Below are positions 856-53,909 of a DNA stretch of 64,000 nt, piece by piece. Every line of letters begins with the position of its first letter. Position 1 is the first letter of the stretch. The notes under the pieces were generated by a model. That model worked only from the letters and a program-made list of their open reading frames with translations. It ran no database searches and was not told where the DNA came from. Both the position numbers and the translations under genes were made by a program. The DNA comes from Flaccisagitta enflata (lineage: Eukaryota): the NCBI GenBank assembly GCA_965153355.1, contig OZ231126.1, positions 18,166,001 through 18,230,000 of the forward strand. Reading direction: 5' to 3'.

Positions 856-3696
856 TCAGTTCAAAAGAACATGTGCGAGGTTACACGCATCCAAAGCACG
901 TAAACGGTTTGAAAATTTCGCGTAGCGTGATTCTATCAATTGTTCCCATGTGGGACGTGACAAAAATTGCTGAAGTGCCGTGACACTCTCAGACCAGCGG
1001 TAGCCAAATAGCCGTCGAAACAGAGAGTTGTATGCCACTCGAAGTTGACGCCGTTCATCGCGGTTGCTGACAGTCACAATCTCGATGCCATAAGTCAGAA
1101 TTGGCACGCAGTGCGATTCAAGAAGCCGCAACATGACAATGTCGTTTGACTTTCCTTCAATTCGGAGTATTGAATTTGCGCAGCGATAGAATTTGCGAAT
1201 GCGTTCGGTGATGCAGCAGTCGAATCCTTTGTTGCTTTTTAGCATGATGCCGAGGTATGGCCACTTATCTGTCCAATCAATCGGTTTGTCGTTCAGTGTG
1301 AGAGTGTGCGTTATATGGATCTTTTTGCCGAAGACCAGATTTCGGGATTTTTTGGCATTTAAGGCAATGTCCCATTCTAAGCAGTACTCGCCACAAACGT
1401 CAAGCAGTAGCTGCAGGCCCTTGATCGACGGTGCCAAAATCGCCATGTCATCTGCGTAGAAGAGGCCAGCTGCAAAATGTTTACCATAGTGGCACCCCTT
1501 ATTCATCTGTTTCAGTTTTTTGATGAGATCGTCGACATAAATGGAGTAAAAGTCTGGCGACAACACACCTCCTTGTCTTACTCCAGCAGAAATATGGAAC
1601 CATTCACTGTAGTGATTGTCCCATTTCACCCGACAAATAAGGCCATCATACCATGAAATGATTATGTCGAGGAACACAAGAGGTGTGTTACGATCAATGA
1701 GTTTGATGAACAGGCCTGAATGAACAAGCCTGTCGAAAGCCTTGCTCGCATCCAGAAATGAGCAAAAGACACGGCTGTCATTGTTTATGTAATATGTCAC
1801 GGTCTCCTTAAGACAGTGAAGCGCGTGAACGGTTGAACTGTTCTTCTTGAACCCGAATTGATGAGAAGATGTTGATAGATGATCAATGTATACGCGCTTA
1901 AGCACATGCTCAAATAGCTTTGACATGATAGGGGAAATGGTGATTCCTCGATAATTATTTGGATCGCCGGCGTTGCCTTGCTGATCTTTGATGATGGGCA
2001 CCATAAATCCAGAGCGGAATTGATGCGGCACATAACCATGTCTCATCATCTGGTTGAAAAGATCTGTGATTCTAACCAACACATTCAGTGGAGCATAGTG
2101 GAGATGTTCTGCTGATATGAGAGACTCGTCTGAGCTTTTACCTTTTTTCAGAGATGAGAGTGCCTCAATTACATCTGGTAACATAATGTAAGTCGATTTG
2201 CAGTCACAGGATTCATTGTGCTTGTTTACATAAGCAGCGTAAGCAGATGAGAATCGATCGTTGAGTCTGTCAACATTTTCGCGATTATTTGGAGTGGAAT
2301 TTGACTTAAAATTTTGCATGAAGACATTTGCTATATCTGCCTTAGAGGAGCAGCCGTTGACAACTGGCGCAAATGGACTCTTATTTGCATTGTAGAGTCT
2401 CCTCCATGTTCCCCAAAACGTCTGGGTGTCAGAGTCGCTCAATGAAGAATGAAGGCGGTCCCATGCCGCCTGTTTTGGCGCACGTTGTGCAGCCCTGATG
2501 GCCTGTTGATAACAAGCACGCATGCGCAGACGTTCCTCATGTATTGGCCCCTGCCTTGGGCGACCTTCACTTATCCATAATGAATGAATGTCGATGGACT
2601 GATTTTTAAGCACTGTGAGACGCTCATTCCACCAATCCTTTTCCGTGCCAGGTTTGAAACGTGGCAAACACGAGTCAGCAGTTTGAAAACAGCTCACTAA
2701 GAAGTCGTATTCTTACTGAATGGCGGCGCCACAGGCCTCATCACGACATCTACACCTATTTGGACAGGAAGAACGTAGATTAAGGCGAGGGCAGAGATTC
2801 ACTAGATCGTGAAGCTTTTGAGAGTAATCTTGAATTTTACCATCTGAGATCTTGTCCCATCTGAGGTAAGCATCAGGCTCTGTTTTTGTTTGATCAGGTT
2901 TTGATCGATGAATTTCAGCAGCGAGATTCAGAACAATGGGCAAATGGTCAGATAGATTGTCGCCTTCGTCAATAACTGCATGATTCGAGATGGAATTTGT
3001 GAAGAGTGAGTCGCTAACAATGAAGTGATCGCTCCACTTTTTTTGATTGAGAGAATTGTGGTGGTATGTAAACGTGTCTGGTGGCAGGAAAGAGTCACAA
3101 CATGATAGATTGTGTCGCGTCATAAAGTCACTCCAATGAATGTCAAAAGGCGCATTTCCTTTTAGCTCAGTATTGAGATCGCCACCAATGATTATGAGAT
3201 GATTGGGATGTTGCTCAATTATTGTATCAAGCATAGCAATAGCGTCATTTGTCTCATTGAAGCACTCTGCTCGATTGGCTGAGTTGAAAAAAGGCATGTA
3301 CGCGCATAGAAACAAGAAGTCTTTGTTTCCCGTGTTGAGCTCGATGCCGACGATGCGTTTGTGTTTAAAATTTGAGAGTGGCGAAACGAGGTGATTTAGG
3401 TCAGGTGACCAACTTATACTAACACCCCCATATGGTCGTCCAGTCATGATGCCCGATGACGTAGCATCTTCCATGCCACTTCTGGCTACAAATTGCGTCC
3501 CTAAAGACTGCATCAATGGAATTTGTTTCTCAGAAAGCCAAAGCTCCTGAGCCATCCAAATCCCTCCATAATTTTGCAAACATGATTTGTGATAATCACT
3601 CGATTTTTTAAATGAATGTAAATTGTGAGATCCAACTGGTATTGATATAAGAGAAGCAGCGAAGATAATTGTGAGCCAAGATGCTAATCTGGACAT
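856..3696 (-). pseudogene. LINE ORF2 (AP endonuclease plus reverse transcriptase) with one in-frame nonsense codon
   Basis: APE motifs QELWL, GRPYGGV, GGDLN, SDHLP; RT motifs NYRGIT, FLDASKAFD, GVRQGGVLSP, YADD, YLG; TAA at 2713-2715 separates two ORFs in the same frame. Confidence 0.92.
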
Positions 3697-3724
3697 TGAG
3701 CCACGGCCAGCAGACGTATTATTT

Positions 3725-3831
<107 letters not shown>

Positions 3832-3832
3832 C

Positions 3833-3907
<75 letters not shown>

Positions 3908-4249
3908 TTTGTTGGACGCGAAATCCCAGTCTCTAATCCGACAATGGATCGGCCAGACTGATCTTGCCATGGCCTTGTCGCGATGGGCTCTCTCGACTCT
4001 AACTTTGGCCGTCTTTGTGCCCTTAAAATGGGAGTTGAGTAGCCAGATGTCCTTGACCTCGACCCCGTGAGTATGTAACTGTCGGCGAATTTGGTCGGCT
4101 GTCGTTGTTTCAGCCAATCGTTGAACCGAGAACTGCCAAAAGTCTCGACCTCGAGGGGCAACTCCTTTAAGTTCCCCATTGTCATTTGTCCCAGTGACTG
4201 GTTTAGCGACTGATTTTCTTCTCGCCTTCTTTCCTCTGGGTCCTCTCCA

Positions 4250-4870
4250 CACGCCACGGGGGAGGCTTTCATAGGTCAAGAAAAATTCTCGGTCATAATG
4301 GCGAGTGGTTTGGGCCTCAGGAAGGTTCACTTTATCACTTCATACCAAAACGAAAATTTTTTTACTTCAAAATTTTTTTAAAATGCCGTAAAATGCCGTA
4401 AAAAGCCTCAAAATTGGCATTTTTGACGTTTTTTTTTGGTCCAAAACCGCCGCTTTGGTCCAGAGATGGGCAAACAATGACTATCTGGCACTAAGACACA
4501 TTCATGCAAAAATACAGGCCATGAAAACTGCTAAAAATGCTATTTTTACGGCTTTTTACGGCATTTTACAGCGTAAGATGATACTGAATGATGACGGGTT
4601 GGCCTGTATTTATGCATGAATGTGTCTTAGTGCCAGATAATCATTGTTTGCCCATCTTATGACCATAGCGGCGGTTTTGGACCCAAAAAACTGTCAAAAA
4701 TGCCAATTTTACAGCTTTTTACGGCATTTTACGGCATTTTAACAAATTTTTGAAGTAAAAAAATTTTCGTTTTGGTATGAAGTGATAAAATGAACCTTCC
4801 TGAGGCCCAAACCACTCGCCATTATGACCGAGAATTTTTCTTGACCTATGAAAGACTCCCCCGTGGCGTG
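4250..4870. mobile_element. Fold-back MITE with CAC...GTG ends and 4-bp TSD (Chapaev/CMC-like)
   Basis: Long TIRs CACGCCACGGGGGAG.CTTTCATAGG...; TCCA duplicated at 4246-4249 and 4871-4874. Confidence 0.88.
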
Positions 4871-5211
4871 TCCATTGTTCTTCATTCTCTTTCAAATTCA
4901 CCACTTGATCGGCAAAAGTCTGTGGTGGTGGAACGATGAGAGGCGAAGTAAGTGAGAGAGGAGATGGAGGAGGAGGAGGAGGAGATAGGTTGATTGCAGG
5001 TGACGGGACTGAAGACGCCGTCGACGACGATGCTGATAGCGCCGCGAGAGATGACGCCGGTAATGAGGACGCCGCCCGAGATGACTCCGGAAGTGGCGTT
5101 GTTACAATTGGTGACGCGATCAGGGAGGGCGCCAAGACTGAAGGCGCCGGGAGTGAGACCGATGCGAGCGAAGTTGTAGTTGGTGGCGTTGTGAATTGGG
5201 ACGCCCCGACA

Positions 5212-5733
5212 GATGACGCCGCGATAGATGACGCCGCGACCGATGTAGCCGCAACTGATGACGCCGCGACAGATGACGCCGCGACCGATGATGCCGCGAC
5301 CGATGGCGCCGCGACAGATGACGCCGCGACCGATGATGCCGCGACCGATGGCGCCGCGACAGATGACGCCGCGACCGATGACGCCGCGACAGATGACGCC
5401 GCAACTGATGACGCCGCGACTGATGACGCCGCGACCGATGACGCCGCGACCGATGACGCCGCGACCGATGACGCCGCGACCGATGACGCCGCGACAGATG
5501 ACGCCGCGACAGATGACGCCGCGACAGATGACGCCGCGACAGATGACGCCGCGACAGATGACGCCGCGACAGATGACGCCGCGACAGATGACGCCGCGAC
5601 AGATGACGCCGCGACAGATGACGCCGCGACTGATGACGCCGCGACAGATGACGCCGCGACTGATGACGCCGCGACAGATGACGCCGCGACAGATGACGCC
5701 ACGACTGATGACGCCGCGACAGATGACGCCGCG
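5212..5733. repeat. 15-bp coding minisatellite (GATGACGCCGCGACA)n, about 35 copies
   Basis: Directly visible; encodes (SSVAA)n in ORF1. Confidence 0.95.
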
Positions 5734-6607
5734 AGAGAAGGTGATGTCGCCTGAGGAAAGTAAGGCAACGCTGTTGCGTCCAGACGCTGTCTCACGTTGT
5801 TGACGTAATGACGAGATGATTTTCGTAGTGTGCGACTGATTTCGTCTTCTGTGTTGATCGGCGTTGCCGGAATGGAACGCCTGGTGTGACGTGACGGAGT
5901 TGAGAAAGTAGAATCGTTCAGTTCATTCACCTCTGCGATGGATGATTCCACTCTTTTGTCAATCCTTGTGACGATGTTGATGACAGATGACAGTTGATGT
6001 TGAAGTTGAGAAACTATCGTTGCTAGTCCATTAACATCAATTTTATCAGCTTCAACCGATGGGAGACGCGAAGGATTGGCGGCCAAAAATACAGATTCTA
6101 TGACTCCGCCTTTTTTGCAGTCAATCACCTCCCAAATATCGAGGATGTCCTTGGTGACCTTGGGAAGCGCGTCTTCCTTGGTCGTGTTGAGACGTTTTTT
6201 TCTAAATTCCGTTATGAAATTTGAGAGATTGAGCTTTTCGCATTCGCTGATGAGAAGTTGCTTGGCTGTAACAGCTTCTTCGTGTGAGTAAAATCCGGAT
6301 ATAACCGAAAAAAGACTTGTGCGATATAGCTTGTCAGCATAGAAAACGAGAAAACACAGTAGTTCGTTGGTTTTTGTATTAGCCATAGTTGAGGAGGGAT
6401 TGAGAGTTTGATTGATTAGTAGATATGCTTTTTCGTTTGTAAACGCGATATGGTTTGCCAAACATCGCAGATAGAAAAGGGGTGGAGATAAAAAAGGCAC
6501 CTTTTCCACTGTATGTCCGTTGAAGTTTTTATATTCACCTCTTTATTTTATGTGCGACAAAGCACCTCTATAACTGGCTGTGTCCGTTGGTTGGTCGGTC
6601 GGGTAAT

Positions 6608-7845: not shown

Positions 7846-7871
7846 GTGCCTCAAGAAAAGGGAAACATGAG

Positions 7872-7944
<73 letters not shown>

Positions 7945-8446
7945 TTGTAAGGGGAGAAAATGATAAGTGGAGTATGTACTGGATATCATCACCAGAAGCT
8001 TAGTTCAGGATACCAATAAAGGCGGCTATCGCCGACTGGAAAAAAAGTCATAAAAAGGGTCTCATTTCTCATTGACATTGCATGTTTCTCAGTGTGTGTA
8101 TCTCAAGCTTTCCCGTTGATTGTTTCTACTTTTAGTTGCGTGCTCCGCGACTCTACACCTCGCTTTGTTGTCCATCCGTCCGTCCATTCATCCGTCTGTC
8201 AGTCCATTACACTTTACTTTTTTTGGGTTTTTCCTGTCTTTGGCCTCACTGCTCCTGCCCAAATAATCCAATGACCTCAAATACTGCCCCTTCCCACCCG
8301 CACGCAACTGGGGTAGCCGTGTATCCAGCCTTTATTTAATCTCTGTGTGTCAGTGTCTCTTTTTCTCTGTGTCTTTCTTTCTCTGTGTCTTTTTTTCTGT
8401 GTCATTTTTGAATGTGTGTGTCTATGGCTTTCTCTCTTTCTCTCAA

Positions 8447-8530
<84 letters not shown>

Positions 8531-9394
8531 TCTCTTTTTTTCTCTTCCTCTCTCTTTCAACCATAAGTAATTAGAGCGAAATGTAAAACCTAGCAACAAA
8601 AAAATTTGAGTCAATGTGCGTAAAATGTTTACTTTTCTTTCTTGTTAGACAGGACCCAAAATTATGATCAATGAAGAATATTGTTTTTCGCAAAAAACAT
8701 AGAAAAAAATTCAAAACATCATAACTTGAAAAATAATTTTTGTAGGAACCTCTGGTTGGCGCCATTTGAAAGAAAAAAATAGCTTAGCTGTGAGTATCAT
8801 AAAAAGTATCACCCCAGCCAAAAAACTACCCAACTTCCTAAAATTGCTCAAAATTAAAAGTGGAAAACTTTATTTTTCCTCTACGTTTCAAAAAGTCGAA
8901 TTACGTAATTCGACTTTTTTTCAACAATTATCAGTTTTCAGAGGAATCGCTTGTAGTTGTACTTGTACTCATGGACATGGGAGAGTGATTAGATTTTTGG
9001 CTGAACATGGTTCACAACCACTGAACATCCAATGTTGAGGCAGATCACTCACCTCAAATTGTAACGGTTACGTCCAGGTGCCGTGAAAGATAGAGATAAA
9101 AAGAGAGAGAAAAGAAATTTTGACCATAGGAAAACCATCACCGTTTGAAACCTCTGCAAATGATCTTTGCTGGTTAATCTGTAGATTTATTTGTTTCTAG
9201 AATGAGTAATCACAATTGACAAGAAGGTTTTGAAAAAACGGTGTTCACTTTGAAAGCTCTTCCATTTGAGATACTGACCTCAGTGACCTGGGACCGGTCT
9301 ACAATGAAAGAAAATTCATAAAACATCTAAACAAAACAAGGCCGGATACACGGGCCAAGACGGTGCGCCTGGCGTTGATACTTCTTAGCTCAAC

Positions 9395-9910: not shown

Positions 9911-12900
9911 TCAATTACTCCATTTTACAATAGATATTGCAGCATGGTCTGAATAGTAAGGATAATTGACATCTATTTCAACCTTCCATGGCAGCTTCTT
10001 TGTATAAACATGATCAAGCAATCCCCCTTCTTTATGTGTTGGAACCTCCACCAATTGATCAAAGCCGCATGATGTGATTTTACGGATGATCATGTCTTTT
10101 GGGTCATTGAAGTAGTTGATGTTGAAATCTCCAAGGATGAAGCAAGGTCTTGCTCCTCGCGCCAAACTTCCAAGGTCATTGAGGAATTCTGTTTTATTGG
10201 CCCCTCGTGAGCAGTAGATATTGATGACATCATATTCTTGACAGGATACTTTGGACAGCTGATAAAGATTTCTATTGATAGCGCCAGTAATTTTGAACAT
10301 TGACTTGAAGTAGGTAGCAATCCCTTTTCCTCTTCCTTCACTGACAAGATGCATCTGATATCCAGGTAGGGAAAGTTGAAGATTTTCATGTTCTTTGCTG
10401 CACCATGTCTCCTGCAAAGCAATAACATCCGCTTGAAACTGAGCATCTTTTAGCAGATGCATATGGTTATGCTGGAGGGAACGGATGTTTAGAGTGACCA
10501 CCAGAGTATTCTTTTGTCTTTTCATTTGTACTTCATTCTTCTTTATTCCTTTGAGTCTGTTTAATTCCTCCATTGCAAGTGCAGAGGGATAGATCTTGTC
10601 ATTTGGAAACTTGTCAAGGATATAGAGCTGATTCAATGCTTGCACTCGACTCATCATCACATAGGCTTGTGCAGCTTCTCTGACAGATTGAAGATCGATC
10701 ACAAGAGGATCAGGCTTAAGAACAGTGCTTCCCTGCATTTTATGCGCGGTGCATGCAAAAGCAACCTTTAGAGGAAACTGAGTAGCACGCATGAAATCGT
10801 TCTGGGAGGATGGATTCTTGGATTGGTTAAAGGAAAACTCAATTTTTGCAATAGGAGTCACAGGCGTATCTGGGAATCTTCTTTGAAGTTGTTGAGAGTT
10901 TTTCTTTCGCATTTCTTTACCAACTTTTTCATTTTTAAAATGTACAAGAATTGTCTTAACTTTACCACCAGCTGTTTCAAAACCAAGTACTTTACCAATG
11001 GCACCATTTGCTAATGAGTCCAGAACATCAACATTATAGGTTAATATGACTTGCGCTCCAACTTTTAGGTTTAGAACAAATTGCAGAGGTGTGTTGTAAA
11101 TTGACATGTCCGACTTTAATCTTGGCTTCTTCACAGGCTTTCCAGATCGAGTAACATAAGCATCAAATGTATAAAGTTGGCCATCCAAGTCTTCTATTCT
11201 GTAGTCATTGATTCTATTCACTCCGGCGTTTGTGCAGATAATGTAGAGTGCTTCTTTTGGTAGATTGCTATCACCACGGGCCTTTACACGTTGTTCCAGA
11301 GTTTTGCAGTCATCTTCGGTTTGCTGTCCAGTCCTGATTCGATTTAATATCTCGGCGTATTCACCGTCTTCGCCTTGCCGATGATTATAGCTCAAGAACA
11401 GAACTTGAAATTTTTGCCAAAGTGAGTCTATCATATATGGTAGATGATAGTCTGCACATAATGGTTTCTCAAAGATGTAACGCCCCATAACAGGTTTCAG
11501 TTGCAGTATATCTCCAAATAGCAGCATGGCGCAGCCTCCAAAAACTTCATCCACATTTTGCTTAAGCTCCCTGAGGCGAAGATCGAGTTGGTAAAACATA
11601 TCAGCCTTTAACATGCTGAACTCATCAATTACAACCAATTTCAAATTTTTCAAATGTTCTCTTTTTTCATCACGTGTTTTGTCCCCAAGAGAAAGAAACT
11701 CATTTCCAAAATTGAAATTGAAGGCACTATGGAGAGTCATTCCATCTACATTTGCTGCCGCGCAGCCTGTAAATGCTGTGATGAGGATATATGGCTTATC
11801 TGGGTCATCTCCTGACTGTCTCAGACTTCTTTCAAACCACTGTCCAATGGCGTTAATCAGCATACTCTTTCCAGCCCCTGCTCCTCCTTGAATGATGTAA
11901 AGTGGTGGATTAATCTTCATTGGTGTTTTTCTGGCTATTTGTAATTGTCTAGCATAATTCAATGCAACATTTAGCACCAATCTTTGATCTGGATCTAGCT
12001 TAAGTGTCAGTTCCATTAATTTTTCGTCACTTTCCAATGTCACTGTCTTGAAAAGGCCTGTAGTGTTCTCAGAATCTTTCTCTAAGTTACTTGGATCTGC
12101 ATGAATAAAGTCTGGATGATCTTCCACTCCTTCTACCTCACATTCATCTCTATCTTGCTCATTCTGAGGGTCTAGCAGGTCACCAATTTCATCCTGCATT
12201 GCCTTAGCTGCTTCCAAGCCTTCTTCCACAGACTCAAGGAATTCCATTATTTTTTCTTTCACTTGCCAGAGGTTAGATTTCATGTAAGTTTGTTGGCAGA
12301 GCTCAAAATTCTCTTTTTCCCTCTCTAAGTTTCCTACTTTTCCATTAGAGTGGGGATGATAAAGCTGTAATTCACTGTAGTAGTACTCATGTGGCTGTTT
12401 TTCTTTATTGAACTTGTGATATCTAAGAACCTGGGATTTTCTTCGCTTCATGTATGGAAGTTCACCTGGTTTGAGGTTGTTTATCACTATGAACAAAGGA
12501 AGCTCTATTGCGTCATCTGATTCATCATAATTGTAAGTAACAATGTGGTTTTCATAGATTGCTTTCCCATTTACATCATAGATTTTTTTTACTTGAACTG
12601 GGGCATAATCAAAGTCTTCTGGTAATTTACTTGATGCCTGATATCTCTTAACAAATTGAGCATAGCAAAGATTCTTCAAATGTGGTTGAAGTTTGCAATT
12701 TCTTCTAAGATACTTTTCATAAATGGAGGGTTTTTCTTGATATTTACCTTGCCTTCCTTCTACTTCAACTACCTTTTCACATGATGCAACTTCATTTTCC
12801 TCTATCTTTTCAAGGTAGCGACTAGGGTTGAAGCCTGTTTGTGCAAAAACACATCCTATGTTGGAATCTTTCATGTGCATACTAGGAATAATGCGGAAAT

Positions 12901-15900
12901 AAGCCTCACTCTCACCCATTTGCCTATGTGTCAGGAAGACTGAAACCATTTTCTTTAATCTTGACCGAAGATCTTCATTCATAGAACTTTTGAGAGCTTC
13001 TTGTAAAACCTTCATTGTGCCTGAATCATCCTTACTGTAATAGTCACTGATGTAAGTAATAACTGCAAAATAATCTAGGCAAAGTTGAAAATCCATATTT
13101 CCATTCCATGCCCTTATCCATTCGGGGTTGTAAGTGTTCACCATTATTTCATCTACATCTCGCCTGTAATGGATAGAGTATCCTTTTTTGTTGACTGATA
13201 ATGCTGCTTCATACTCCTGAAGTCTGCTTTCTACACTTTTATCAACTTTTTCTGGGTTTACATGCTCAAGTAGTTTTTCTATCCTCTTTTTAATCAACTC
13301 TGTCAATCTTTCATTTTGGTAATCCAGTGATATTAGCTTTGCTTCAAGTGCCTTTAATGATGTACAACCGGCTTCATCCAGTATGTTTTGTACAAAGTAG
13401 AGCATATCCTCAGGTATTTTAACTTTTTCTTCCTTATTGTATTTCCCCTCATCAATCAATTCTTGGAATCTAAATTTCAGGTATCTTTCTGCAAATATAC
13501 TCTCAATATCATCATTGCAATATGAAGATATACCACGCATTGTGTCCTCATTCTCTAAGATTTCCATCACACCCTCAAGAAACAGAGTGTACCTACTCAT
13601 CATTTTTTTCCGTTGTGTCTCATCTGGAAATTGGATTCTTGATGGAGCACTTATGATGGTTTTATAAGTTGGAAATCTTGGGAATTTAAATCTACATGTT
13701 GTGCCATATTTTTTGCAAGCCCTTGCTGTGTGGTAGTGAACATTGACTTCTTTTACTATGTCATATGTCGATGGGTCTTTCAATGTAACAGAGATAAAAA
13801 GATCTGCAAATTTTACCAGAGACTGTTTGTGACTTATATCAAGCTTTTCTTCTGATTTTATGAAATTGAGTGCCTCAACTATTCTACAAACATCATCCCT
13901 GGGTAAGGCAGTGAACTTTTTCCAGTCCATCCATAATGTCCCATGTGCATGGGGAGCGCCCCTTAGTTGAAATTCTATCCGATAGTTGAAATACTCAAGT
14001 GTTAGAGGGGATCCGCTTGAAAGAACGATGTGCTTTAGAAACATTTTTAGCCTTTGCTGGAAGTTTAGGGTTGCATTTAATAGATTATTCTTGATGAATT
14101 CATGTTTACTGGGATACGCCTTTAGATAATCATCCAATTTTTCTCCATCTATGTAGAATTGTTCCCTGCCATTCAAGCATTCAAACTCAATTTTATGACC
14201 TTCCAGAAGAGATGTAAAGTTCTCTGGCCACCTTATGTCAGCACACGATAATGTAAAGAAAAAGGTGAAAGGACCAAGGTTCTCCAACTTAGCATACAAC
14301 TCTTGTCTTGCTTTTTTCCAGTAACGAGGGGTATTTTTGATTTGATCCAATACCATGTACGGATCATCAAGGGTGTAAATGCATGTGCCATCAGGCCTCA
14401 TTTTTTCAAGCCCTCTTTGAAATGAAAGGTTAATGTTCCTATGAATTTGCTTCTGTTCAGTGTGTGCTGCAGCCACAAAAGTGAAAGCAGGGCAATTCCC
14501 AAACCTATCATCAACATTGAGAATTCGTTGACACCAATATTCTTGTTCTCCCAACTTTACCTTTCTATCTTCGTCTTTCCCATTCCTGCCGTCAGGAAAG
14601 AGACAGGGAAATGATTTCACATCAATATTTTCTTCCTGCAGTATACTTTGTGGTATCTTGCCTTGACCAGGCGCAACTTGGGTGACATCATTAACATTCT
14701 CCTCTATGGCTATTTCAGGGTGATTTTCACCAAAGCAAGTTGAGCGATTGTAATTAAATTGGCTTTTTGCAATGACATCATTTTTCAAATACTCATTTTC
14801 TTCCTCTTCACAATCTTGAGTTTTGCTAGATTCATCAGGTTGTACAACATTTTGGGAGCTTGTATCCAATTCCATCTCATTCATTTCTTCTTCATTACAG
14901 CTTTGAGAATTGATCTCAAGATCTGATAGATTAATATCTTCCTCTGGAAACAGTATTCTGAATCCCTCTGGATCAGTTTTTTGGCATCTTTCTTTAAATT
15001 GTTTATCTTCAAGGATATTTTGGTAATAAGGGTTTTTTAGTTCTATAAAGGTACGTAAGGCTTGCATCACATTACTCATGTTTATCAGTTGTTGTCTATG
15101 CACCCCTGGAAAGTTCAGTCTGCGTTTCAGTTGTACAACAGTAAGGCTTGCATCTGTAGGAGTTCTAGGCAATTTTGTTATTGTTTCTGCCACATCTGCT
15201 GTAGAAACGGGAACACTCACTGTTTTGTCTTTCATAGCACTCATTCTAGTCTTTGGTAGTAGAACTATCTTTTGAAATATTAGGTTGAGGGCAATCAATT
15301 GCTGTTCAAGCTCACTCAGATTCAGCTCAGGATGATTCTTTCTATCAACGAGCTGCAAGTTGTTCTGATTTGACATGGGAGGCATGGCATTTCGCTCAAG
15401 ATAAGTTTTACATGTGTAGCAGACATGATTGCTAGATAATTGCTCTGGATCCATCCCTTTTAGGCAGGGAAGAAAGATATTTCGTAGTGGTATCGGCCCT
15501 ATGAACTTTGCAAAAGACTCTGGGTATTGCCTCTCATAACAGTCCTGCCATTCATCATCCAACTCTATGACTTGATTTTCATACAATTTTCGATGACAGC
15601 AGATACAAAAATATACGCGGCCTTTGCGAATGGATGCATAGAACCCTTTTTTTCGCTTGAATGCAGTATCTGAACTGTTCAATCTACTTTTTTGTTTGCT
15701 TATCTTTAGCTTTAGTCTATATTTTTCCACATCCTCTGCTATTTGTTTGGTTCTTTCATTTCGTTTTTCGTTTTTTCTCTTTTCGTCATAAGCCTCTTTG
15801 TCTTCATCCATTTCCCTTTGCCTTTCATTTCGTCTTTCATTTTTTCTCTTTTCATCATAAGCCTCTTTGTCTTCATCCATTTCCCTTTGCCTTTCATTTC

Positions 15901-17581
15901 GTCTTTCATTTTTTCTCTTTTCATCATAAGCCTCTTTGTCTTCATCCATTTCTCTTTGCCTTTCATTTCGTCTTTCATTTTTTCTCTTTTCATCATAAGC
16001 CTCTTTGTCTTCATCTATTTCTTTTTGCCTTTCATTTCGTTTTTCATTTTTTCTCTTTTCATCATAAGCCTCTTTGTCTTCATCCATTTCCCTTTGCCTT
16101 TCATTTTGTTTTTCATTTTTTCTCTTTTCATCATAAGCCTCTTTGTCTTCATCAATTTCTTTTTGCCTTTCATTTCGTCTTTCATTTTTTCTCTTTTCGT
16201 CATAAGCTATTTTGTTTTCATCCATTTCTTTTTGCCTTTCATTTCGTTTTTCTTGTTTCCTTTGCTCTTGATAACGACTTAAATCTTGTTCCATTTTACT
16301 ACTGCGACATTTTCGCTGTCTTAATTTTGATTTTTCCTTTTCTTCAAGATCATTTTCATGTTCCATTTTATTACTGCGACATTTTTGCTGTCTTAATTTT
16401 GATTTCTCTTTTTTTTCTAGTTCATTTTCATGTTCTATTTTTTCCATGTCATAGTGGTTCTGACAATTTTCGCTACGCTTTAGATGAGAAAACAATAAAG
16501 TGAATGATTTATTGCATCCCTTGCATAGAATCTTTTGCTTGCACTTTTCATCATTCTCCGTATCTAGAGATGACAATGACTCATTACTAGAATATGGCCG
16601 TTTGTTGTTTGATGTAGTTGGAAAATTTTTAGGGGCGTTTTGATTTGAGGGTTTTGCAAATGTCCGACTTTCTGTAGTGAATGCCTGTAGTTGTTGTGTG
16701 CATTTCTTTAATAAAATACCATAGCTTTGTTCAGAGCTGCTATCATAAGGTGTTTTTTCCCTAGGAATTTTGTCATCTTCACAAAGATACCATTTGCCTC
16801 CACTTTTTAAGTAAGCCCTGTTGTGACCCGCTTCTGCAGTGCCCATATGGGTTATTTGTCCAATAACCTCATATCTAATCTTATCAACTAGCACTTCAGA
16901 AGGAACCGTAACTGATGTCACATTCTTTACTGTTCTTGCATCAATGCAATTCATTCGTAATAGCTGGATGATTAGATACTCTGGGAAATCAATGAGACAA
17001 AATTTTTCCATATATTGCAGTGTAGGCGATTCGGAGGAGCTGTCAATGCAAAAGCTGCATCTTCTTCCATCCATTTGAATACTGGCCAAAAAGTGTTTTT
17101 TAACTAGATTGTCAAGATTAACAGGCATTTGTGATTTTGGTAATGATATCTTAAGAATCTTATCTGAACTTTCAACTGCTTGGGGAAATTGCTTACAGGT
17201 TGGACATGGGGATGATTTACCATTTATGAAAAATCTGTATTGTAGTGATGTTTTGAAGCTGAAAAAAGTGTTTGGACAATTATCCAGCAAAAAATTGAGG
17301 AATTCCATAGTGTCATGTTGCTCCCCTGAATTCAATGGTTTGTTTGTCACGGCTTCTAAATGATATCTTAAAGTTGAGGCACTAACCACCGATAAGGTTC
17401 CACATTTGGACAAAATTATATGAAGTGAATCCAACAAAGGACTGACTGACCTCCAATTGATCAGCTCAGATACAAATTCCGGAACATGTCGTAACAGTTG
17501 AAGATTACTGTTCAAGCTGCACATATTTCTATCACCGCCACCATTTTTTAATAGAAGTGGAGGAAACATACAAGCCATCAT
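9911..17581 (-). CDS. Helentron polyprotein (~2556 aa): USP/C19 peptidase, Zn finger, charged repeats, Rep (HUH), PIF1 helicase, AP-type endonuclease
   Basis: Rep motifs FFFTLSCAD, EFQLRGAPHAHG, YISDYYSK; helicase motifs GGAGAGKS, IDEFSM, GDILQLKPV, QFPLKVAFACTAHKMQG, YVMMSRV; endonuclease motifs LNIRSL, QETW, GDFN, LDHVY, SDH; first ATG after the (CT)n tract is at 17581. Confidence 0.93.
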   Translation of the reverse strand: MMACMFPPLLLKNGGGDRNMCSLNSNLQLLRHVPEFVSELINWRSVSPLLDSLHIILSKCGTLSVVSASTLRYHLEAVTNKPLNSGEQHDTMEFLNFLLDNCPNTFFSFKTSLQYRFFINGKSSPCPTCKQFPQAVESSDKILKISLPKSQMPVNLDNLVKKHFLASIQMDGRRCSFCIDSSSESPTLQYMEKFCLIDFPEYLIIQLLRMNCIDARTVKNVTSVTVPSEVLVDKIRYEVIGQITHMGTAEAGHNRAYLKSGGKWYLCEDDKIPREKTPYDSSSEQSYGILLKKCTQQLQAFTTESRTFAKPSNQNAPKNFPTTSNNKRPYSSNESLSSLDTENDEKCKQKILCKGCNKSFTLLFSHLKRSENCQNHYDMEKIEHENELEKKEKSKLRQQKCRSNKMEHENDLEEKEKSKLRQRKCRSSKMEQDLSRYQEQRKQEKRNERQKEMDENKIAYDEKRKNERRNERQKEIDEDKEAYDEKRKNEKQNERQREMDEDKEAYDEKRKNEKRNERQKEIDEDKEAYDEKRKNERRNERQREMDEDKEAYDEKRKNERRNERQREMDEDKEAYDEKRKNERRNERQREMDEDKEAYDEKRKNEKRNERTKQIAEDVEKYRLKLKISKQKSRLNSSDTAFKRKKGFYASIRKGRVYFCICCHRKLYENQVIELDDEWQDCYERQYPESFAKFIGPIPLRNIFLPCLKGMDPEQLSSNHVCYTCKTYLERNAMPPMSNQNNLQLVDRKNHPELNLSELEQQLIALNLIFQKIVLLPKTRMSAMKDKTVSVPVSTADVAETITKLPRTPTDASLTVVQLKRRLNFPGVHRQQLINMSNVMQALRTFIELKNPYYQNILEDKQFKERCQKTDPEGFRILFPEEDINLSDLEINSQSCNEEEMNEMELDTSSQNVVQPDESSKTQDCEEEENEYLKNDVIAKSQFNYNRSTCFGENHPEIAIEENVNDVTQVAPGQGKIPQSILQEENIDVKSFPCLFPDGRNGKDEDRKVKLGEQEYWCQRILNVDDRFGNCPAFTFVAAAHTEQKQIHRNINLSFQRGLEKMRPDGTCIYTLDDPYMVLDQIKNTPRYWKKARQELYAKLENLGPFTFFFTLSCADIRWPENFTSLLEGHKIEFECLNGREQFYIDGEKLDDYLKAYPSKHEFIKNNLLNATLNFQQRLKMFLKHIVLSSGSPLTLEYFNYRIEFQLRGAPHAHGTLWMDWKKFTALPRDDVCRIVEALNFIKSEEKLDISHKQSLVKFADLFISVTLKDPSTYDIVKEVNVHYHTARACKKYGTTCRFKFPRFPTYKTIISAPSRIQFPDETQRKKMMSRYTLFLEGVMEILENEDTMRGISSYCNDDIESIFAERYLKFRFQELIDEGKYNKEEKVKIPEDMLYFVQNILDEAGCTSLKALEAKLISLDYQNERLTELIKKRIEKLLEHVNPEKVDKSVESRLQEYEAALSVNKKGYSIHYRRDVDEIMVNTYNPEWIRAWNGNMDFQLCLDYFAVITYISDYYSKDDSGTMKVLQEALKSSMNEDLRSRLKKMVSVFLTHRQMGESEAYFRIIPSMHMKDSNIGCVFAQTGFNPSRYLEKIEENEVASCEKVVEVEGRQGKYQEKPSIYEKYLRRNCKLQPHLKNLCYAQFVKRYQASSKLPEDFDYAPVQVKKIYDVNGKAIYENHIVTYNYDESDDAIELPLFIVINNLKPGELPYMKRRKSQVLRYHKFNKEKQPHEYYYSELQLYHPHSNGKVGNLEREKENFELCQQTYMKSNLWQVKEKIMEFLESVEEGLEAAKAMQDEIGDLLDPQNEQDRDECEVEGVEDHPDFIHADPSNLEKDSENTTGLFKTVTLESDEKLMELTLKLDPDQRLVLNVALNYARQLQIARKTPMKINPPLYIIQGGAGAGKSMLINAIGQWFERSLRQSGDDPDKPYILITAFTGCAAANVDGMTLHSAFNFNFGNEFLSLGDKTRDEKREHLKNLKLVVIDEFSMLKADMFYQLDLRLRELKQNVDEVFGGCAMLLFGDILQLKPVMGRYIFEKPLCADYHLPYMIDSLWQKFQVLFLSYNHRQGEDGEYAEILNRIRTGQQTEDDCKTLEQRVKARGDSNLPKEALYIICTNAGVNRINDYRIEDLDGQLYTFDAYVTRSGKPVKKPRLKSDMSIYNTPLQFVLNLKVGAQVILTYNVDVLDSLANGAIGKVLGFETAGGKVKTILVHFKNEKVGKEMRKKNSQQLQRRFPDTPVTPIAKIEFSFNQSKNPSSQNDFMRATQFPLKVAFACTAHKMQGSTVLKPDPLVIDLQSVREAAQAYVMMSRVQALNQLYILDKFPNDKIYPSALAMEELNRLKGIKKNEVQMKRQKNTLVVTLNIRSLQHNHMHLLKDAQFQADVIALQETWCSKEHENLQLSLPGYQMHLVSEGRGKGIATYFKSMFKITGAINRNLYQLSKVSCQEYDVINIYCSRGANKTEFLNDLGSLARGARPCFILGDFNINYFNDPKDMIIRKITSCGFDQLVEVPTHKEGGLLDHVYTKKLPWKVEIDVNYPYYSDHAAISIVKWSN
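15740..16250. repeat. 69-bp coding tandem repeat (KRKNERRNERQREMDEDKEAYDE)n in the Helentron ORF
   Basis: About 7 copies visible in both DNA and protein. Confidence 0.9.
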
Positions 17582-17591
17582 GAATTTGCAT

Positions 17592-17650
<59 letters not shown>

Positions 17651-18162
17651 TTTCAATCGAGGAATAAGAAAAAAAGGCCTCAGATCAGAGTATCAACAAC
17701 CTAGCTTTTGGTACCAAGTGATTTCAAGTCGATAGGAGCTGATCAGAAGATAGAACAAAGTATTAATGAGAGGTAAAAAAAACAAAAAATAACAATGAAA
17801 ATTATTTACAGAAAATCCCTTCTTAAGCTCTAGGGTAGCAACTGGACAGCCTAGGTTTTGGTACATGGAGTACAGTGTATAGGCGATATTAAGTCGCGTT
17901 GCTGATATGAGCATAAAAGAATAAGGGGATATGGGGATTGGGAAAAAGAAAACTCTTGAGAATATCCAAGAAAATATTTCGAAATTTTCAAATATTGCCA
18001 GGATTCCGTAAGCAAGAGTGAAGAGCTCAGTGAGAAACGTCTTTTTATACAGAATTGATATGTCCGATGGAATTTGCAGATTTAAGTGTACTCAATTGGA
18101 GGAGGAAGAGGAGGAGTATTTTTTCGCTAACCATCCGGATCTGGTTTCAGCTGGTTTCGGCT

Positions 18163-18227
<65 letters not shown>

Positions 18228-20614: not shown

Positions 20615-20619
20615 GTGAG

Positions 20620-20693
<74 letters not shown>

Positions 20694-20969
20694 CGAGAGC
20701 GAGAGCGAGAGCGAGAGCGAGAGCGAGAGCGAGAGCGAGAGCGAGTCACAGAGCGACAATAGAACAGAGGTGTAGAGAAGACTACGGACAAATACACAGA
20801 GGGACACTTAGAGAGATTAGATAGTTTAAGAAGGGATTGTTTGACTGCACCTTCGACAGGCCTTCACTATATACCCATTACTATCAAAAAAATCATTCCT
20901 AAAACAACTGAGTGAGGCAAATTAGGGAAAGCAATATCGGCCCTCATTCAGTCATTGTGCATTTTTAAG

Positions 20970-38753: not shown

Positions 38754-40054
38754 ATTGTTGCTGTTGTTGTTGTGGTTTTCCATGTTCAATGTTTTCTTTT
38801 TCTTTGTTGCTTGTCTACTCTATGGTGATGCGCGCAAAACCAAGACTTAAAAAGACTTCAGCTTTGGCTGTCACAAATGTCTCTGTAGTTAACGCATAGG
38901 CGAAGTGACTGACAAAGCAAGGGAAGTGGCTTCACCCAATGGGAAATATGTCAAATATTTAACGTCTTCAGCCTAGCTTAGGAGACCAATTTACCATAAA
39001 GAGAGAGAGAGAGAGAGAGACAGACAGGCACACAGACAGACGTATAGGCTGAAAGAAACACGTGAAATAGCTAGACACCTAAAACAGACAAACAAGCCCG
39101 ACCGGGCAACTATGCGTCCGGAATGTGCCTCTGCGTGTATTGATCCAGTGACATATATAGACAGACAGATGGACGGACAGACGGGTGAAACGACTTAGTA
39201 GTAAAGGAGGCTCTCAAACCATGTTGGTTGATCATTTGTTCCAGTATAGGATGTCACCGTGGCCAAAAACAGCCGAGAAACGCGGTTTTGCACAGACGGA
39301 CGGACGGACGGACAAACGGACAGACCGACGGACCGACCAACGGACCGACCGACCGACGCACTGTGGGCTTAAATGTGCGCTAGGTGGCTCATTGGGGATC
39401 AACATTACATCTTTTCAATTATATTGTTCCTTATGAAATACACAAAATAAAAAACAATTTTACGCATATTTCAGATGTTATGAAACTGTTTATACCCAAT
39501 ATTGACTCATTTCAACTGGATTAAAGCTTTATGAGCTTAGAATACAAAAGAAGAGAAATTTGAGAAAACCAAGCTAAACTCTCTTACATTTAGTATTTGA
39601 ATTGTCTAAAGTTTTGACCAAATCTATAATATTTTTGTCTTTGTTCAATAAGATTCCTTAATACAGTGCTAAAAAAAAATCATTTTTTTGCTCATTTAGC
39701 TTATTTTGCTCATTTTTCTTCTAATCAAATATAGATTTTTACTTCATCCGCATTTTTACTTGTCCATTTCAGGGCAAGAAAATCGCATTTAGACGGAAAA
39801 GGACGCCCTTAGCCCTAACATTCTCAATTCAGGACACCTTAAGCTTCATTTTGGCACAGGTTTCAAGTTGTGCATCCTTGTGCGATTTTTTTTGTCACCA
39901 AGTAAAAAAATCATGAAAATAGATATATCTGAAAATAATTAGGTAATTTATCAGTCCTAGATATGTGAAAAATGATGTTTTTTTTTTACTTTTATAGCCA
40001 TTGAGACATTAATGAAGGAATCTAATCCAATAATGGAGATTTCATAAGCTTTTT

Positions 40055-41746
40055 GTGTTCCACGATAGTGGAACACTAAATATTAAGAAATTTTCCGTCT
40101 GTACGTCCGTCCGTCCCAGATTTTTCCTATGTAAAAATGTATGTCACGCAACCCAGTTTTCTCCAGTGTATGTCACACAACCCAGAATTCACCGATGTAT
40201 GTCACACCATCCAGTTTTTTCCGATGTATGTCACACCACCCAGTTTTCTCCAATGTATGTCACACAACCCAGAATTCTCCGATGTATGTCACACAGCCCA
40301 GAATTCTCCGATGTATGTCACACCACCCAGTTTTCTCCAATGTATGTCACACAACCCAGAATTCTCCGATGTATGTCACACTACCCAGTTTTCTCCGATG
40401 TATGTCACACCACCCAGAATTCTCCGATGTATGTCACACAACGCAGTTTTCTCCAATGTATGTCACACAACCCAGTTTTCTCCAATGTATGTCACACAAC
40501 CCAGAATTCTCCGATGTATGTCACACCACCTAGTTTTCTCCGATATATGTCACACCAATGTATGTCACACCAATGTATGTCACACAACTCAGAATTCTCC
40601 GATGTAAGTCACACCAGCCAGTTTTCTCCAATATATGTCACACAGCTTAGAATTCTCCAATGTATGTCACACCACCCTATTTTCTCCAATGTATGTCACA
40701 CAGCCAGAATTCTCCAATGTATGTCACACTATCCAGTTTTCTCCGATGTATGTCACACAGCCCAGAATTCTCCGATGTATGTCACGCCACCCAGTTTTCT
40801 CCGATGTATGTCACACAGCCCAGAATTCTTTGATATATGTCACACCACCCAGTTTTTTCCAATGTATGTCACACAGCCCAGAATTCTCCAATGTATGTCA
40901 CACCACCCAGTTTTCTCCGATGTATGTCACACAGCCCAGAATTCTCCGATGTATGTCACGCCACCCAGTTTTCTCCGATGTATGTCACAGCCCAGAATTC
41001 TCCAATGTATGTCACACCATCCAGTTTTCTCCGATATATGTCATACAGCCCAGAATTCTCCAGTGTATGTCACATCACCCAGTTTTCTTGGATGTATGTC
41101 ACACAGCCCAGAATTCTCTGAAGCATGTCACACTACCCAGTTTTCTCCAATGTATGTCACACAGCCCAGAATTCTTCGATGTATGTCTCACCACCCAGTT
41201 TTCTCCAATGTATGTCATAGAGCCCAGAATGCTCCGATGTATGTCACATCACTCAATTTTTCCAATGTATGTCATACCACCCAGTTTTCTCCGATATATG
41301 TCACACAGCCCAGCATTTTCCGATGTATGTCACACCACCCAGTTTTCTCCGATGTATGTCACACAGCCCAGAATTCTCCGATGTATGTCACACCACCCAG
41401 TTTTCTCCAATGTATGTCACACAGCCCAGAATTCTCCGATATATGTCACACCACCCAGTTATCTCCAATATAAGTCATACCACCCAGTTTTTTCTGATGT
41501 ATGTCACACAGCCCAGAATTCTCTGATGTATGTCACACCACCCAGTTTTTTCCAATGTATGTCACACAGTCCAGAATTCTCCAATGTATGTCACACCACC
41601 CAGTTTATCTCCACTGTATGTCACACAGCCCTGTATTCTTTGATGTATATCACACCACCTAGTTTGTTCCAATGTATGTCACACAGCCCTGTATTTTTCA
41701 ATGTATGTTACACAACCCCGCTTTTTCCACACACATACCCACACAT

Positions 41747-41812
<66 letters not shown>

Positions 41813-42148
41813 ACACACACACACAAGCGGCAGTGGGACCGCCCACAGGCGGCAGTGAGACCAGCCACAGGTGGCAGTGGGACCACCCACAGGCGGTAGT
41901 GGGGCCGCCCACAGGCGGTAGTGGGGCAGCCCACAGGCGGCAGTGGGACCTCCCACAGGCGGCAGCGAGGCCGCCCATAGGCGGCAGTGAGCTCCCCCAT
42001 GCATGGTAGTTAGGCCGCCCACAGGCGGCCATTATTTACAACACAGATTTGTCTGGTTATTATTATTAGATTTGTGTTATGAATTATTGCCTTTCTTTTT
42101 CATGCCAAATCAAGTTTTCGTGGAACACGTTATGGCGAACGCCACTAG
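40055..42148 (+). mobile_element. Non-autonomous Helentron-like element carrying satellite arrays
   Basis: 5' palindrome GTGTTCCACGATAGTGGAACAC, GTCC repeats, 3' subTIR CGTGGAACAC, hairpin TGGCGAACGCCA, CTAG end, T-rich flanks. Confidence 0.8.
40138..41715. repeat. ~30-bp tandem satellite (GTATGTCACACAGCCCAGAATTCTCCGAT / GTATGTCACACCACCCAGTTTTCTCCAAT)
   Basis: Directly visible; two unit types mostly alternate. Confidence 0.95.
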
Positions 42149-50882: not shown

Positions 50883-51000
<118 letters not shown>

Positions 51001-51340: not shown

Positions 51341-51448
<108 letters not shown>

Positions 51449-52538: not shown

Positions 52539-52586
52539 GTGAGAATGGCAAGTTTATGACACCTATGACCTCCCAACCCCCACCCT

Positions 52587-52664
<78 letters not shown>

Positions 52665-53515: not shown

Positions 53516-53909
<394 letters not shown>

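What the first reader, a model, noticed from the sequence alone, without database searches (positions are those of the whole stretch)
16700..17550. Helentron transposase fused to an apparently catalytically intact USP/C19 deubiquitinase domain
Seen in sequence: the N-terminus of the single uninterrupted ORF has a Cys box (LKNGGGDRNMCSLNSNLQLL, Cys codon 17519-17521), a QxD box (GEQHDTMEFL), two CxxC pairs (CPTC, CSFC) like the USP fingers zinc ribbon, and a His box (ITHMGTAEAGHNRAY...WYLCEDD, His codon 16823-16825). Established: the cysteine protease usually described in Helentrons is OTU-type, and USP is a different fold. Inference: this lineage captured a deubiquitinase independently. It might stabilise RepHel, process the polyprotein, or strip ubiquitin from chromatin, repair or silencing factors. 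I cannot confirm novelty without a search.
Basis: partly seen in the sequence, partly recalled or inferred. Interest (0 to 1): 0.85.

Follow-up and report, generated by a model that had tools for sequence, protein, structure and literature searches.

The report
Helentron transposase with USP deubiquitinase domain
An apparently intact rolling-circle transposon (Helentron) gene begins with a genuine USP-type ubiquitin-removing domain, a combination that is real and conserved but has already been catalogued in this transposon group.

Summary
One open frame on the minus strand (Met 17581 to stop 9911-9913, 2,556 codons) encodes USP, a CxxC..H..C motif, 23-aa charged repeats, DUF6570, Rep, PIF1 helicase and an EEP endonuclease. 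Run alone, the N-terminal 327 aa match Pfam UCH (PF00443) at E 5.5e-20. The AlphaFold2 model (pLDDT 91) matches USP12/46/18/2/30 (Foldseek E about 1e-21, TM about 0.7).

One departure: the usual Asp/Asn after the His box is Glu, followed by the conserved Asp. That feature marks the whole subfamily.

- USP is a different fold from the OTU and VTD deubiquitinases of Helentrons.
- The fusion is not private to this lineage. The HELIANO survey (NAR 2024) already lists UCH as a recurrent HLE2 domain.
- 5 of 120 long RepHel relatives carry an N-terminal USP.
- All Helentron-linked USP domains fall in one clade.
- Sister elements in the same RepHel clade carry an OTU-like domain at the same position, so the deubiquitinase reads as an exchangeable module.

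No biochemical test of a Helentron USP turned up in my literature searches. Verdict: new member of a known kind, modest interest.

The parts
9914..17581 (-). Complete Helentron coding frame of 2,556 codons from the first Met; stop codon at 9911-9913
   Evidence: ORF list and translation. It is the only copy in the window by tblastn.
16721..17530 (-). USP / peptidase C19 domain (Pfam UCH match). The confidently modelled fold spans about 16685-17557.
   Evidence: Pfam PF00443 E 5.5e-20. AF2 pLDDT 91. Foldseek top hits USP12/46/18/2/30. Profile against PDB hits USP15 at 3.4e-33.
17519..17521 (-). Catalytic Cys codon (Cys box NMCSLNSNLQ)
   Evidence: Read on the ruler. Aligns to the NTCFMNS Cys box of USP15/USP2. 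Cys in 35 of 35 covering rows of the close subfamily.
16823..16825 (-). Catalytic His codon (His box AGHNRAY)
   Evidence: Read on the ruler. Aligns to GHY of USP15/USP2/USP18. His in 26 of 26 covering rows.
16775..16780 (-). Glu-Asp pair (WYLCEDD) at the position of the USP Asp/Asn-Asp pair
   Evidence: Aligned to FDDS of USP15 and FNDS of USP2/USP18. In the subfamily, Glu 21 and Asp 3 of 24 covering rows; the following Asp in 21 of 24.
17048..17206 (-). Four zinc-ribbon cysteines of the fingers subdomain (CPTC ... CSFC)
   Evidence: Nearly invariant in the 24-row alignment. In the subfamily 37/37, 37/37, 34/35 and 34/35.
16463..16525 (-). CxxC..H..C zinc-finger-like motif (CKGCNKSFTLLFSHLKRSENC) just after the USP domain
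   Evidence: Position. The same motif follows USP in P0005, P0006, P0040 and P0095, and follows the OTU-like domain in P0200.
15663..16412 (-). Tandem 69-nt repeats encoding 23-aa Glu/Lys/Arg-rich repeats
   Evidence: Direct-repeat family D2, 8 copies at 69-nt spacing. Composition. Similar charged repeats occur in relatives.
15014..15394 (-). DUF6570, described as an HLE2 marker
   Evidence: Pfam PF20209 E 8.3e-10 on the sub-region. HELIANO names it HLE2-specific.
13940..14395 (-). Rep (Helitron_like_N) with an HAH motif at 13943-13951. A YISDY motif lies further on, at 13040-13054.
   Evidence: Pfam PF14214 E 1.5e-15. Motifs located; their functional names are recalled.
10979..11908 (-). PIF1-like helicase with Walker A GAGAGKS (11864-11884), Walker B VVIDE and the 2B domain
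   Evidence: Pfam PF05970 E 2.9e-22 and PF21530. Motifs.
9944..10495 (-). C-terminal EEP/AP-type endonuclease, the Helentron hallmark
   Evidence: Pfam PF03372 E 2.2e-10. SDH motif near the C-terminus.

Best explanation
This is the single large gene of an apparently intact Helentron (HLE2 rolling-circle transposon with a C-terminal AP-type endonuclease). Its N-terminal module is a USP-fold cysteine deubiquitinase.

Shown here: the fold, the in-frame fusion, conservation of the active-site Cys and His and of the zinc ribbon across a diversified transposon-borne USP family, and the presence of an OTU-like domain at the same position in sister elements.

Inferred: the domain is an active deubiquitinase working with a Cys-His-(Glu)/Asp centre. 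During transposition it removes ubiquitin either from the transposase itself or from host replication, repair or chromatin factors at the transposition site. That would protect them from proteasomal turnover or ubiquitin signalling. This is the role proposed for the VTD and OTU deubiquitinases of other Helentrons. On this reading the deubiquitinase is an exchangeable accessory cassette (USP, OTU or VTD) in front of a conserved DUF6570-Rep-helicase-endonuclease core.
For: - Fold and family: Pfam UCH E 5.5e-20; profile against PDB hits USP15 at 3.4e-33 and USP2 at 3.5e-30 over the full domain; AF2 pLDDT 91; Foldseek finds 460 matches at E <= 0.001, and the 40-odd rows printed are all USP structures.
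- Active site: the Cys box and His box align to the catalytic residues. In 38 close-subfamily rows at 41-71% identity, Cys is kept in 35/35 covering rows, His in 26/26, Glu or Asp in 24/24 and the following Asp in 21/24.
- Intact element: a 2,556-codon open frame with HAH, YISDY, Walker A and B, and SDH motifs.
- Recurrence: 5 of 120 long RepHel relatives have an N-terminal USP. P0045 repeats the architecture.
- Exchangeable module: in the 31-row RepHel clade (support 100) that holds this element, 4 rows carry USP. Five others (P0193, P0194, P0195, P0198, P0200) carry an OTU-like domain. Its evidence is Pfam OTU at E 0.02-0.045 in 2 of 5 rows, OTUD7B at 1.9e-4 by profile, an AF2 model at pLDDT 85, and Foldseek hits that are OTU domains in every printed row from E 3.6e-5. 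Among the 120 relatives, precomputed Pfam lists OTU in 11 and Herpes_teg_N in 3.
- Literature: Helentron VTD domains are active deubiquitinases in vitro, and their authors suggest they prevent degradation of proteins needed for transposition (PMC9741609, passages).
Against: - No activity data exist for any Helentron USP in the literature I searched.
- The canonical third catalytic residue (Asp/Asn) is Glu, and the Tyr of GHY is Asn. Activity or specificity could therefore differ.
- Substrate and timing are pure inference.
- Copy number, termini and transcription could not be examined.
- Many 'no deubiquitinase' relatives in the trees are probably N-terminally truncated gene calls on short contigs, so frequencies are rough.
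- The trees are FastTree only.
Confidence: 0.7

Rival explanations
1. The domain is a USP-fold pseudoenzyme that binds ubiquitin without cleaving it, for example to dock the transposase onto ubiquitinated chromatin or PCNA.
For: Glu replaces the canonical Asp/Asn, and Asn replaces the Tyr of GHY, in the whole close subfamily.
Against: The catalytic Cys (35/35) and His (26/26) are strictly kept across rows only 41-71% identical to ours. Pseudoenzymes usually lose them. The Asp right after the Glu is kept in 21/24. From recall, not from any call here: in several human USPs this second Asp is the more important residue.
Confidence: 0.12
2. The domain is specific for a ubiquitin-like modifier (ISG15, NEDD8, FUBI or SUMO-like), not for ubiquitin.
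For: USP18 (ISG15-specific) and USP36 (Fubi complex) are among the sequence and structure matches. The altered GHN/Glu active-site surroundings are subfamily-wide. Some zebrafish Helentron VTDs also act on NEDD8 (PMC9741609).
Against: USP18 is not closer than USP12/46/2/30 or USP15/2/8. Nothing specific links the domain to any one modifier.
Confidence: 0.1
3. The protease processes the transposon's own polyprotein in cis, releasing RepHel.
For: This role was proposed historically for the Helentron OTU protease (PMC4067079, passage). The domain sits at the N-terminus of a very long protein.
Against: USPs cleave after a ubiquitin-type C-terminus. The ORF has no ubiquitin-like Pfam domain and no [LR]RGG site.
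Confidence: 0.05
4. The domain is a recently captured host USP gene fragment carried as a passenger with no function, or the fusion is an assembly or annotation artefact.
For: Helitron-like elements are known gene capturers (PMC11417382). Only one copy could be examined.
Against: The same order recurs in diverged relatives at 33-43% RepHel identity. The catalytic residues are conserved. The frame is continuous across the junction. The nearest solved cellular USPs are only 15-21% identical.
Confidence: 0.03

Closest known systems
UCH-bearing HLE2 (Helentron/Helitron2) elements catalogued by HELIANO (Li et al., NAR 2024, PMC11417382)
   Same: Both have a Pfam UCH (PF00443) domain stably associated with HLE2 RepHel, and both carry DUF6570 as the HLE2 marker.
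   Different: That paper reports UCH enriched in subgroups c and d (mostly lungfish and axolotl) and the endonuclease enriched in subgroup b. It counts UCH among domains 'encoded in different ORFs'. Here UCH, RepHel and the endonuclease share one frame. Its supplementary tables and figures could not be seen, so UCH plus endonuclease in one ORF may be recorded there.
Zebrafish Helentron VTD deubiquitinases DrT1/DrT2 (Erven et al., Nat Commun 2022, PMC9741609)
   Same: A papain-fold cysteine deubiquitinase sits inside the open frame of an endonuclease-bearing Helentron, with its catalytic residues kept. The proposed role is protection of transposition proteins.
   Different: The fold is different (VTD/Herpes_teg_N, not USP). 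The VTDs are biochemically proven; this USP is not.
OTU-like cysteine protease of Helentrons (Thomas et al. 2014, PMC4067079)
   Same: Same element class. Sister elements carry it at the same N-terminal position, ahead of the same zinc-finger motif and charged repeats.
   Different: OTU fold, about 180 aa, no zinc ribbon. This ORF has no OTU match.
Cellular USPs (USP12/USP46, USP2, USP15, USP30, USP18)
   Same: The predicted structure matches solved USP catalytic domains at TM about 0.7, with Cys box, QxD box, zinc ribbon and His box.
   Different: Only 15-21% identity. Glu replaces Asp/Asn and GHN replaces GHY. It is a minimal domain of about 290 aa without insertions, attached to a transposase.

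Membership tests
Peptidase C19 / USP (Pfam UCH PF00443) | Sequence match above the curated family threshold | tested here: met
   72.5 bits against a cut-off of 23.9, E 5.5e-20, on the 327-aa N-terminus. Not listed when the whole protein was scanned.
Peptidase C19 / USP (Pfam UCH PF00443) | USP catalytic-domain fold | tested here: met
   AF2 pLDDT 91, pTM 0.86. Foldseek top hits USP12, USP46, USP18, USP2 and USP30 at E 1e-21 to 1e-20, TM 0.65-0.73.
Peptidase C19 / USP (Pfam UCH PF00443) | Cys-box catalytic cysteine and His-box catalytic histidine | tested here: met
   NMCSLNS aligns to NTCFMNS, and GHN aligns to GHY of USP15/USP2. Conserved 35/35 and 26/26 in the subfamily.
Peptidase C19 / USP (Pfam UCH PF00443) | Third catalytic residue Asp/Asn after the His box | tested here: inconclusive
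   Glu sits at the aligned position, followed by the conserved Asp. A carboxylate is kept, but not the canonical residue.
Peptidase C19 / USP (Pfam UCH PF00443) | Isopeptidase activity on ubiquitin | not testable with these tools
   Needs a probe or substrate assay.
Helentron (HLE2 with endonuclease) | Rep (HUH-type) domain plus PIF1-like helicase in one protein | tested here: met
   PF14214 at E 1.5e-15 and PF05970 at E 2.9e-22. HAH, YISDY and Walker motifs present.
Helentron (HLE2 with endonuclease) | C-terminal AP-type (EEP) endonuclease fused to RepHel | tested here: met
   PF03372 at E 2.2e-10, residues 2400-2583.
Helentron (HLE2 with endonuclease) | DUF6570 upstream of Rep (HLE2 marker according to HELIANO) | tested here: met
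   PF20209 at E 8.3e-10. Marker status from PMC11417382.
Helentron (HLE2 with endonuclease) | Element termini (subterminal inverted repeats, stem-loop, T-T insertion) and multiple genomic copies | tested here: inconclusive
   Only 11-12-nt inverted matches between the flanks, about what chance gives. One copy in the window. No genome held.
OTU cysteine protease (PF02338) | OTU domain within this ORF | tested here: not met
   No OTU match in the whole protein or in the sub-regions.
VTD / Herpes_teg_N deubiquitinase (PF04843) | VTD domain within this ORF | tested here: not met
   No match. Present in 3 of 120 relatives.

The most novel reading that the evidence does not exclude
The N-terminal deubiquitinase of animal Helentrons is a swappable cassette. 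USP, OTU-like and VTD folds occupy the same slot ahead of a conserved zinc-finger motif, charged repeats and the DUF6570-RepHel-endonuclease core. They have been exchanged between co-resident lineages: the USP tree and the RepHel tree disagree, and close RepHel sisters carry USP or OTU. That would make deubiquitination itself an obligatory step of Helentron transposition. In addition, this subfamily would use an unusual Cys-His-Glu/Asp centre with GHN in place of GHY, possibly with altered substrate specificity.
Probability: 0.35. Interest if true: 0.55.

Novelty: new member of a known kind. Interest (0 to 1): 0.3.

Why it matters
Three unrelated deubiquitinase folds (OTU, VTD and USP) now appear at the front of Helentron transposases. 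That strengthens the argument that escaping ubiquitin-dependent control is part of the life cycle of these elements.

This copy is a clean candidate for testing the idea. It is one uninterrupted frame with every expected motif in place, and its USP domain is small (about 290 aa) and confidently modelled. No Helentron USP or OTU has been assayed in the literature I could search.

On its own, though, the fusion is not a discovery. The association of UCH with HLE2 has been in print since 2024.

Tried and rejected
- Whole-protein Pfam scan did not list UCH. Scanning the domain alone did. I therefore re-checked the 120 relatives with an unfiltered hmmsearch, which gave the same 5 as the precomputed Pfam.
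- First PDB search used the wrong frame. Corrected.
- Word-indexed search for long proteins sharing the USP part found only 1 protein, P0002, a non-Helitron USP. This under-reports, because P0197, P0199 and P0233 exist.
- Scan of JGI metagenome contigs: alignment A1 had no usable conserved stretch. With A2, 229 pattern matches were found but none was confirmed by tblastn.
No genome is held for the window. Copy number, dN/dS between copies, transcription and termini therefore stay open.
- Search for terminal inverted or direct repeats between the flanks found nothing above chance.
- ESM Atlas nearest clusters are UCH proteins labelled Nucleocytoviricota, score 0.95. I treated this as a lead only. 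It was not followed and is not used as evidence of origin.
- Polyprotein-processing idea: no ubiquitin-like domain and no [LR]RGG site.
- P0125 (2,027 aa) has a related USP domain but no RepHel similarity, so it is not another Helentron.
Full report
**What is there**

On the minus strand, window 9911-17692 is one frame of 2,593 codons between stops. The first Met is at 17581, giving 2,556 codons. Immediately upstream lies a (CT)n microsatellite, which the stop-to-stop reading turns into LSLSLS. Scanned whole, the protein matches Helitron_like_N (residues 1100-1251), PIF1 (1929-2125), the Pif1 2B domain and Exo_endo_phos (2400-2583). A sub-region also matches DUF6570 (residues 767-893, E 8.3e-10). 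HAH, YISDY, Walker A GAGAGKS, Walker B VVIDE and a C-terminal SDH motif are all present (the functional names of these motifs are from recall). By coding capacity this is an intact Helentron, meaning an HLE2 element with a C-terminal AP-type endonuclease. It is the only copy in the window.

**The observation**

The Cys codon (17519-17521) and the His codon (16823-16825) are exactly where stated.

UCH was not listed when the whole protein was scanned. The N-terminal 327 residues alone match Pfam UCH PF00443 at E 5.5e-20, 72.5 bits against a cut-off of 23.9, over profile positions 7-250 of 254. Single-sequence phmmer against PDB gave only weak USP hits, the best at E 1.2e-4. A profile of 24 relatives (A1) hits the catalytic domains of USP15 (3.4e-33), USP2 (3.5e-30), USP8 and USP30 over their full length.

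AlphaFold2 on that alignment gives pLDDT 91.0 and pTM 0.86, with the ordered part at residues about 9-299. Foldseek against PDB returns 460 matches at E <= 0.001. The rows printed are all USP structures, led by USP12, USP46, USP18, USP2 and USP30 at E about 1e-21 to 1e-20, TM 0.65-0.73 and 15-21% identity. The USP fold is therefore established.

**Active site**

- The Cys box (NMCSLNSNLQ) and the His box (GHN) align to the catalytic Cys and His of USP15, USP2 and USP18.
- The four zinc-ribbon cysteines and the Q-x-D box are present.
- The position aligned to the canonical third residue (D in USP15, N in USP2 and USP18) is Glu. It is followed by the Asp that is nearly invariant in USPs.
- In 38 rows of the close subfamily (41-71% identity to ours), counting only rows that cover each position:
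  - Cys is kept in 35 of 35.
  - His is kept in 26 of 26.
  - Asn of GHN is kept in 26 of 26.
  - Glu occurs in 21 and Asp in 3 of 24.
  - The next Asp occurs in 21 of 24.

The Glu and the GHN are thus subfamily hallmarks under selection, not decay of this copy. From recall, not from any call here: work on human USPs reports that the second Asp can be the more critical residue in several family members. I rate catalytic competence as likely but unproven.

**Is it private to this lineage?**

No.

Literature. The HELIANO paper (PMC11417382; passages, sections 23 and 22 read; preprint passages) lists UCH among 20 domains stably included in Helitron-like elements. It describes UCH as 'almost exclusively' in HLE2 and enriched in HLE2 subgroups c and d, which come mostly from lungfish and axolotl. 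It reports the endonuclease and Herpes_teg_N as enriched in subgroup b, and it counts UCH among the domains 'encoded in different ORFs'. Its supplements were not available to me.

- An exhaustive phmmer search with the domain finds 707 proteins at E <= 1e-3, 24 of them at E <= 1e-30. Most of the best hits are 150-470-aa fragments on ENA contigs of 1-2 kb.
- P0045 (3,191 aa; its cluster has 4 members) has UCH 16-321, DUF6570, Helitron_like_N and PIF1 in one protein. It is only about 24% identical to ours in the helicase.
- Searching with the RepHel-endonuclease part gave 121 proteins, of which the best 120 were listed. Precomputed Pfam shows UCH in 5 (P0197, P0199, P0233, P0263, P0284), OTU in 11 and Herpes_teg_N in 3. 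An unfiltered hmmsearch with the A1 profile confirms the same 5 of 120, all at the N-terminus.

**Trees (FastTree, local supports only)**

RepHel core tree. It uses 110 of 121 rows. Eleven were dropped for not spanning Rep to helicase, among them P0284 (USP) and P0292 and P0294 (OTU). This element sits in a 31-row clade (support 100) together with the USP-bearing P0197, P0199 and P0233. P0263 lies in another clade. Its nearest relatives (P0178-P0182, 54-68% identity) start at positions equivalent to our residues 633-714. Most of them sit on contigs barely longer than the gene. They look N-terminally truncated, so they say little about whether a deubiquitinase is present.

USP-domain tree (78 rows). 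All 9 rows known to be linked to RepHel fall inside one 54-row clade (support 91). That clade excludes multi-USP and other fusion proteins. Ours sits in an 11-row clade (support 100) with short fragments.

This suggests one old transposon-borne USP family, not a recent capture. The two trees also disagree. The USP of P0197 groups with that of P0263, while its RepHel groups near ours. That hints at shuffling, but the supports are modest.

**A deubiquitinase cassette**

Five members of the same 31-row RepHel clade (P0193, P0194, P0195, P0198, P0200) have 430-610-residue N-terminal extensions without USP. These share a G(N/D/S)C..F ... HYESLHP motif. The evidence that this segment is an OTU-like domain is:
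- Pfam OTU matches below threshold, E 0.022-0.045, in 2 of the 5 rows, over profile positions 1-121 of 128.
- The profile hits OTUD7B at E 1.9e-4.
- The AlphaFold2 model has pLDDT 85.3.
- Foldseek returns 10 matches at E <= 0.001, and every row printed, to about E 0.02, is an OTU domain (OTUD7B, OTUD3, yeast Otu1 and Otu2, and viral OTUs), at TM about 0.4-0.57.

In P0200 this OTU-like domain is followed by the same CxxC..H..C motif, and in all five by charged repeats, as found after the USP domain here. Closely related cores therefore carry USP or OTU in the same slot. The explanation could be exchange, or differential loss from an ancestor that had two deubiquitinases. Erven et al. report 121 Helitrons with both VTD and OTU.

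**Mechanism**

Erven et al. (PMC9741609, passages) showed that the VTD domains of zebrafish Helentrons are active on ubiquitin, and some on NEDD8. They suggest these domains prevent proteasomal degradation of proteins needed for transposition. They also note that OTU domains may replace VTD and have never been assayed. Thomas et al. (PMC4067079, passages) proposed chromatin signalling or cleavage of Rep/helicase for the OTU.

My preferred reading is that the USP is a third solution to the same requirement. It would be a deubiquitinase delivered in cis with the transposase, acting on the transposase itself or on nearby host factors. Cis-processing of the polyprotein is unlikely, because the ORF has no ubiquitin-like domain and no [LR]RGG site.

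**Novelty and verdict**

Literature searches for Helentron with ubiquitin, Helitron with 'ubiquitin carboxyl-terminal hydrolase', and Helentron/USP/deubiquitinase returned only HELIANO as a source naming UCH in these elements. They returned no biochemical study of such a domain. The library lacks many subscription journals and Repbase reports.

The fusion is real, conserved and probably functional, but it belongs to a catalogued kind. What this copy adds:
- an uninterrupted USP-RepHel-endonuclease frame;
- a defined Glu/GHN subfamily;
- evidence that USP and OTU-like modules alternate within one RepHel clade.

Interest is modest (0.3).

**Left open**

Host organism, copy number, element ends, transcription, dN/dS between copies, and enzymatic activity all remain open.

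Noticed in passing
window 856-6542 (-): Three adjoining long open frames (856-2712, 2713-4275, 4719-6542). The first matches reverse transcriptase RVT_1 at E 5.3e-26, which suggests a retrotransposon a few kb downstream of the Helentron's 3' end. The other two have no Pfam match.
   Followed up: partly
window 9911-17692 (-), whole protein against the N-terminal 327 aa: hmmscan of the whole 2,593-residue protein did not report UCH at E <= 0.01, yet the isolated domain scores 72.5 bits. Long ORFs containing low-complexity repeats can hide a domain from routine annotation.
   Followed up: yes
window 15663-16412 (-): Eight tandem 69-nt units encode 23-aa Glu/Lys/Arg-rich repeats between the USP and DUF6570 regions. 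Comparable charged repeats sit at the same place in USP-type and OTU-type relatives. Function unknown.
   Followed up: partly
proteins P0020, P0021, P0039, P0115, P0116 (hits): Distant relatives of the domain include proteins with 10, 7 and 6 tandem USP domains, a USP-caspase fusion and an ankyrin-USP fusion. They lie outside the Helentron USP clade. The ESM Atlas nearest clusters are labelled Nucleocytoviricota.
   Followed up: no
alignment A1, columns about 430-480 (P0023, P0031, P0033, P0036, P0057, P0079, P0085, P0112, P0131): In 9 of 24 rows the USP domain is followed by a short conserved motif of the form (F/I)(V/I)PT.EWQE(V/I).. G..(I/V)P.G. This window's element has the CxxC..H..C motif there instead. 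Meaning unknown.
   Followed up: no
window 40001-42000, 50001-54000, 56001-60000: Strong GC skew in 2-kb windows (-0.33, about -0.29, and +0.29 to +0.38), far from the rest of the window. ORFs there have no Pfam match, so these are probably satellite or strand-biased repeats.
   Followed up: no
window 7870-7945, 8420-8560, 17590-17650, 18165-18225, 20615-20710: Repeated long (GA)n/(CT)n microsatellites flank the element. One abuts the start codon. They swamp the repeat searches and gave no usable element termini.
   Followed up: partly
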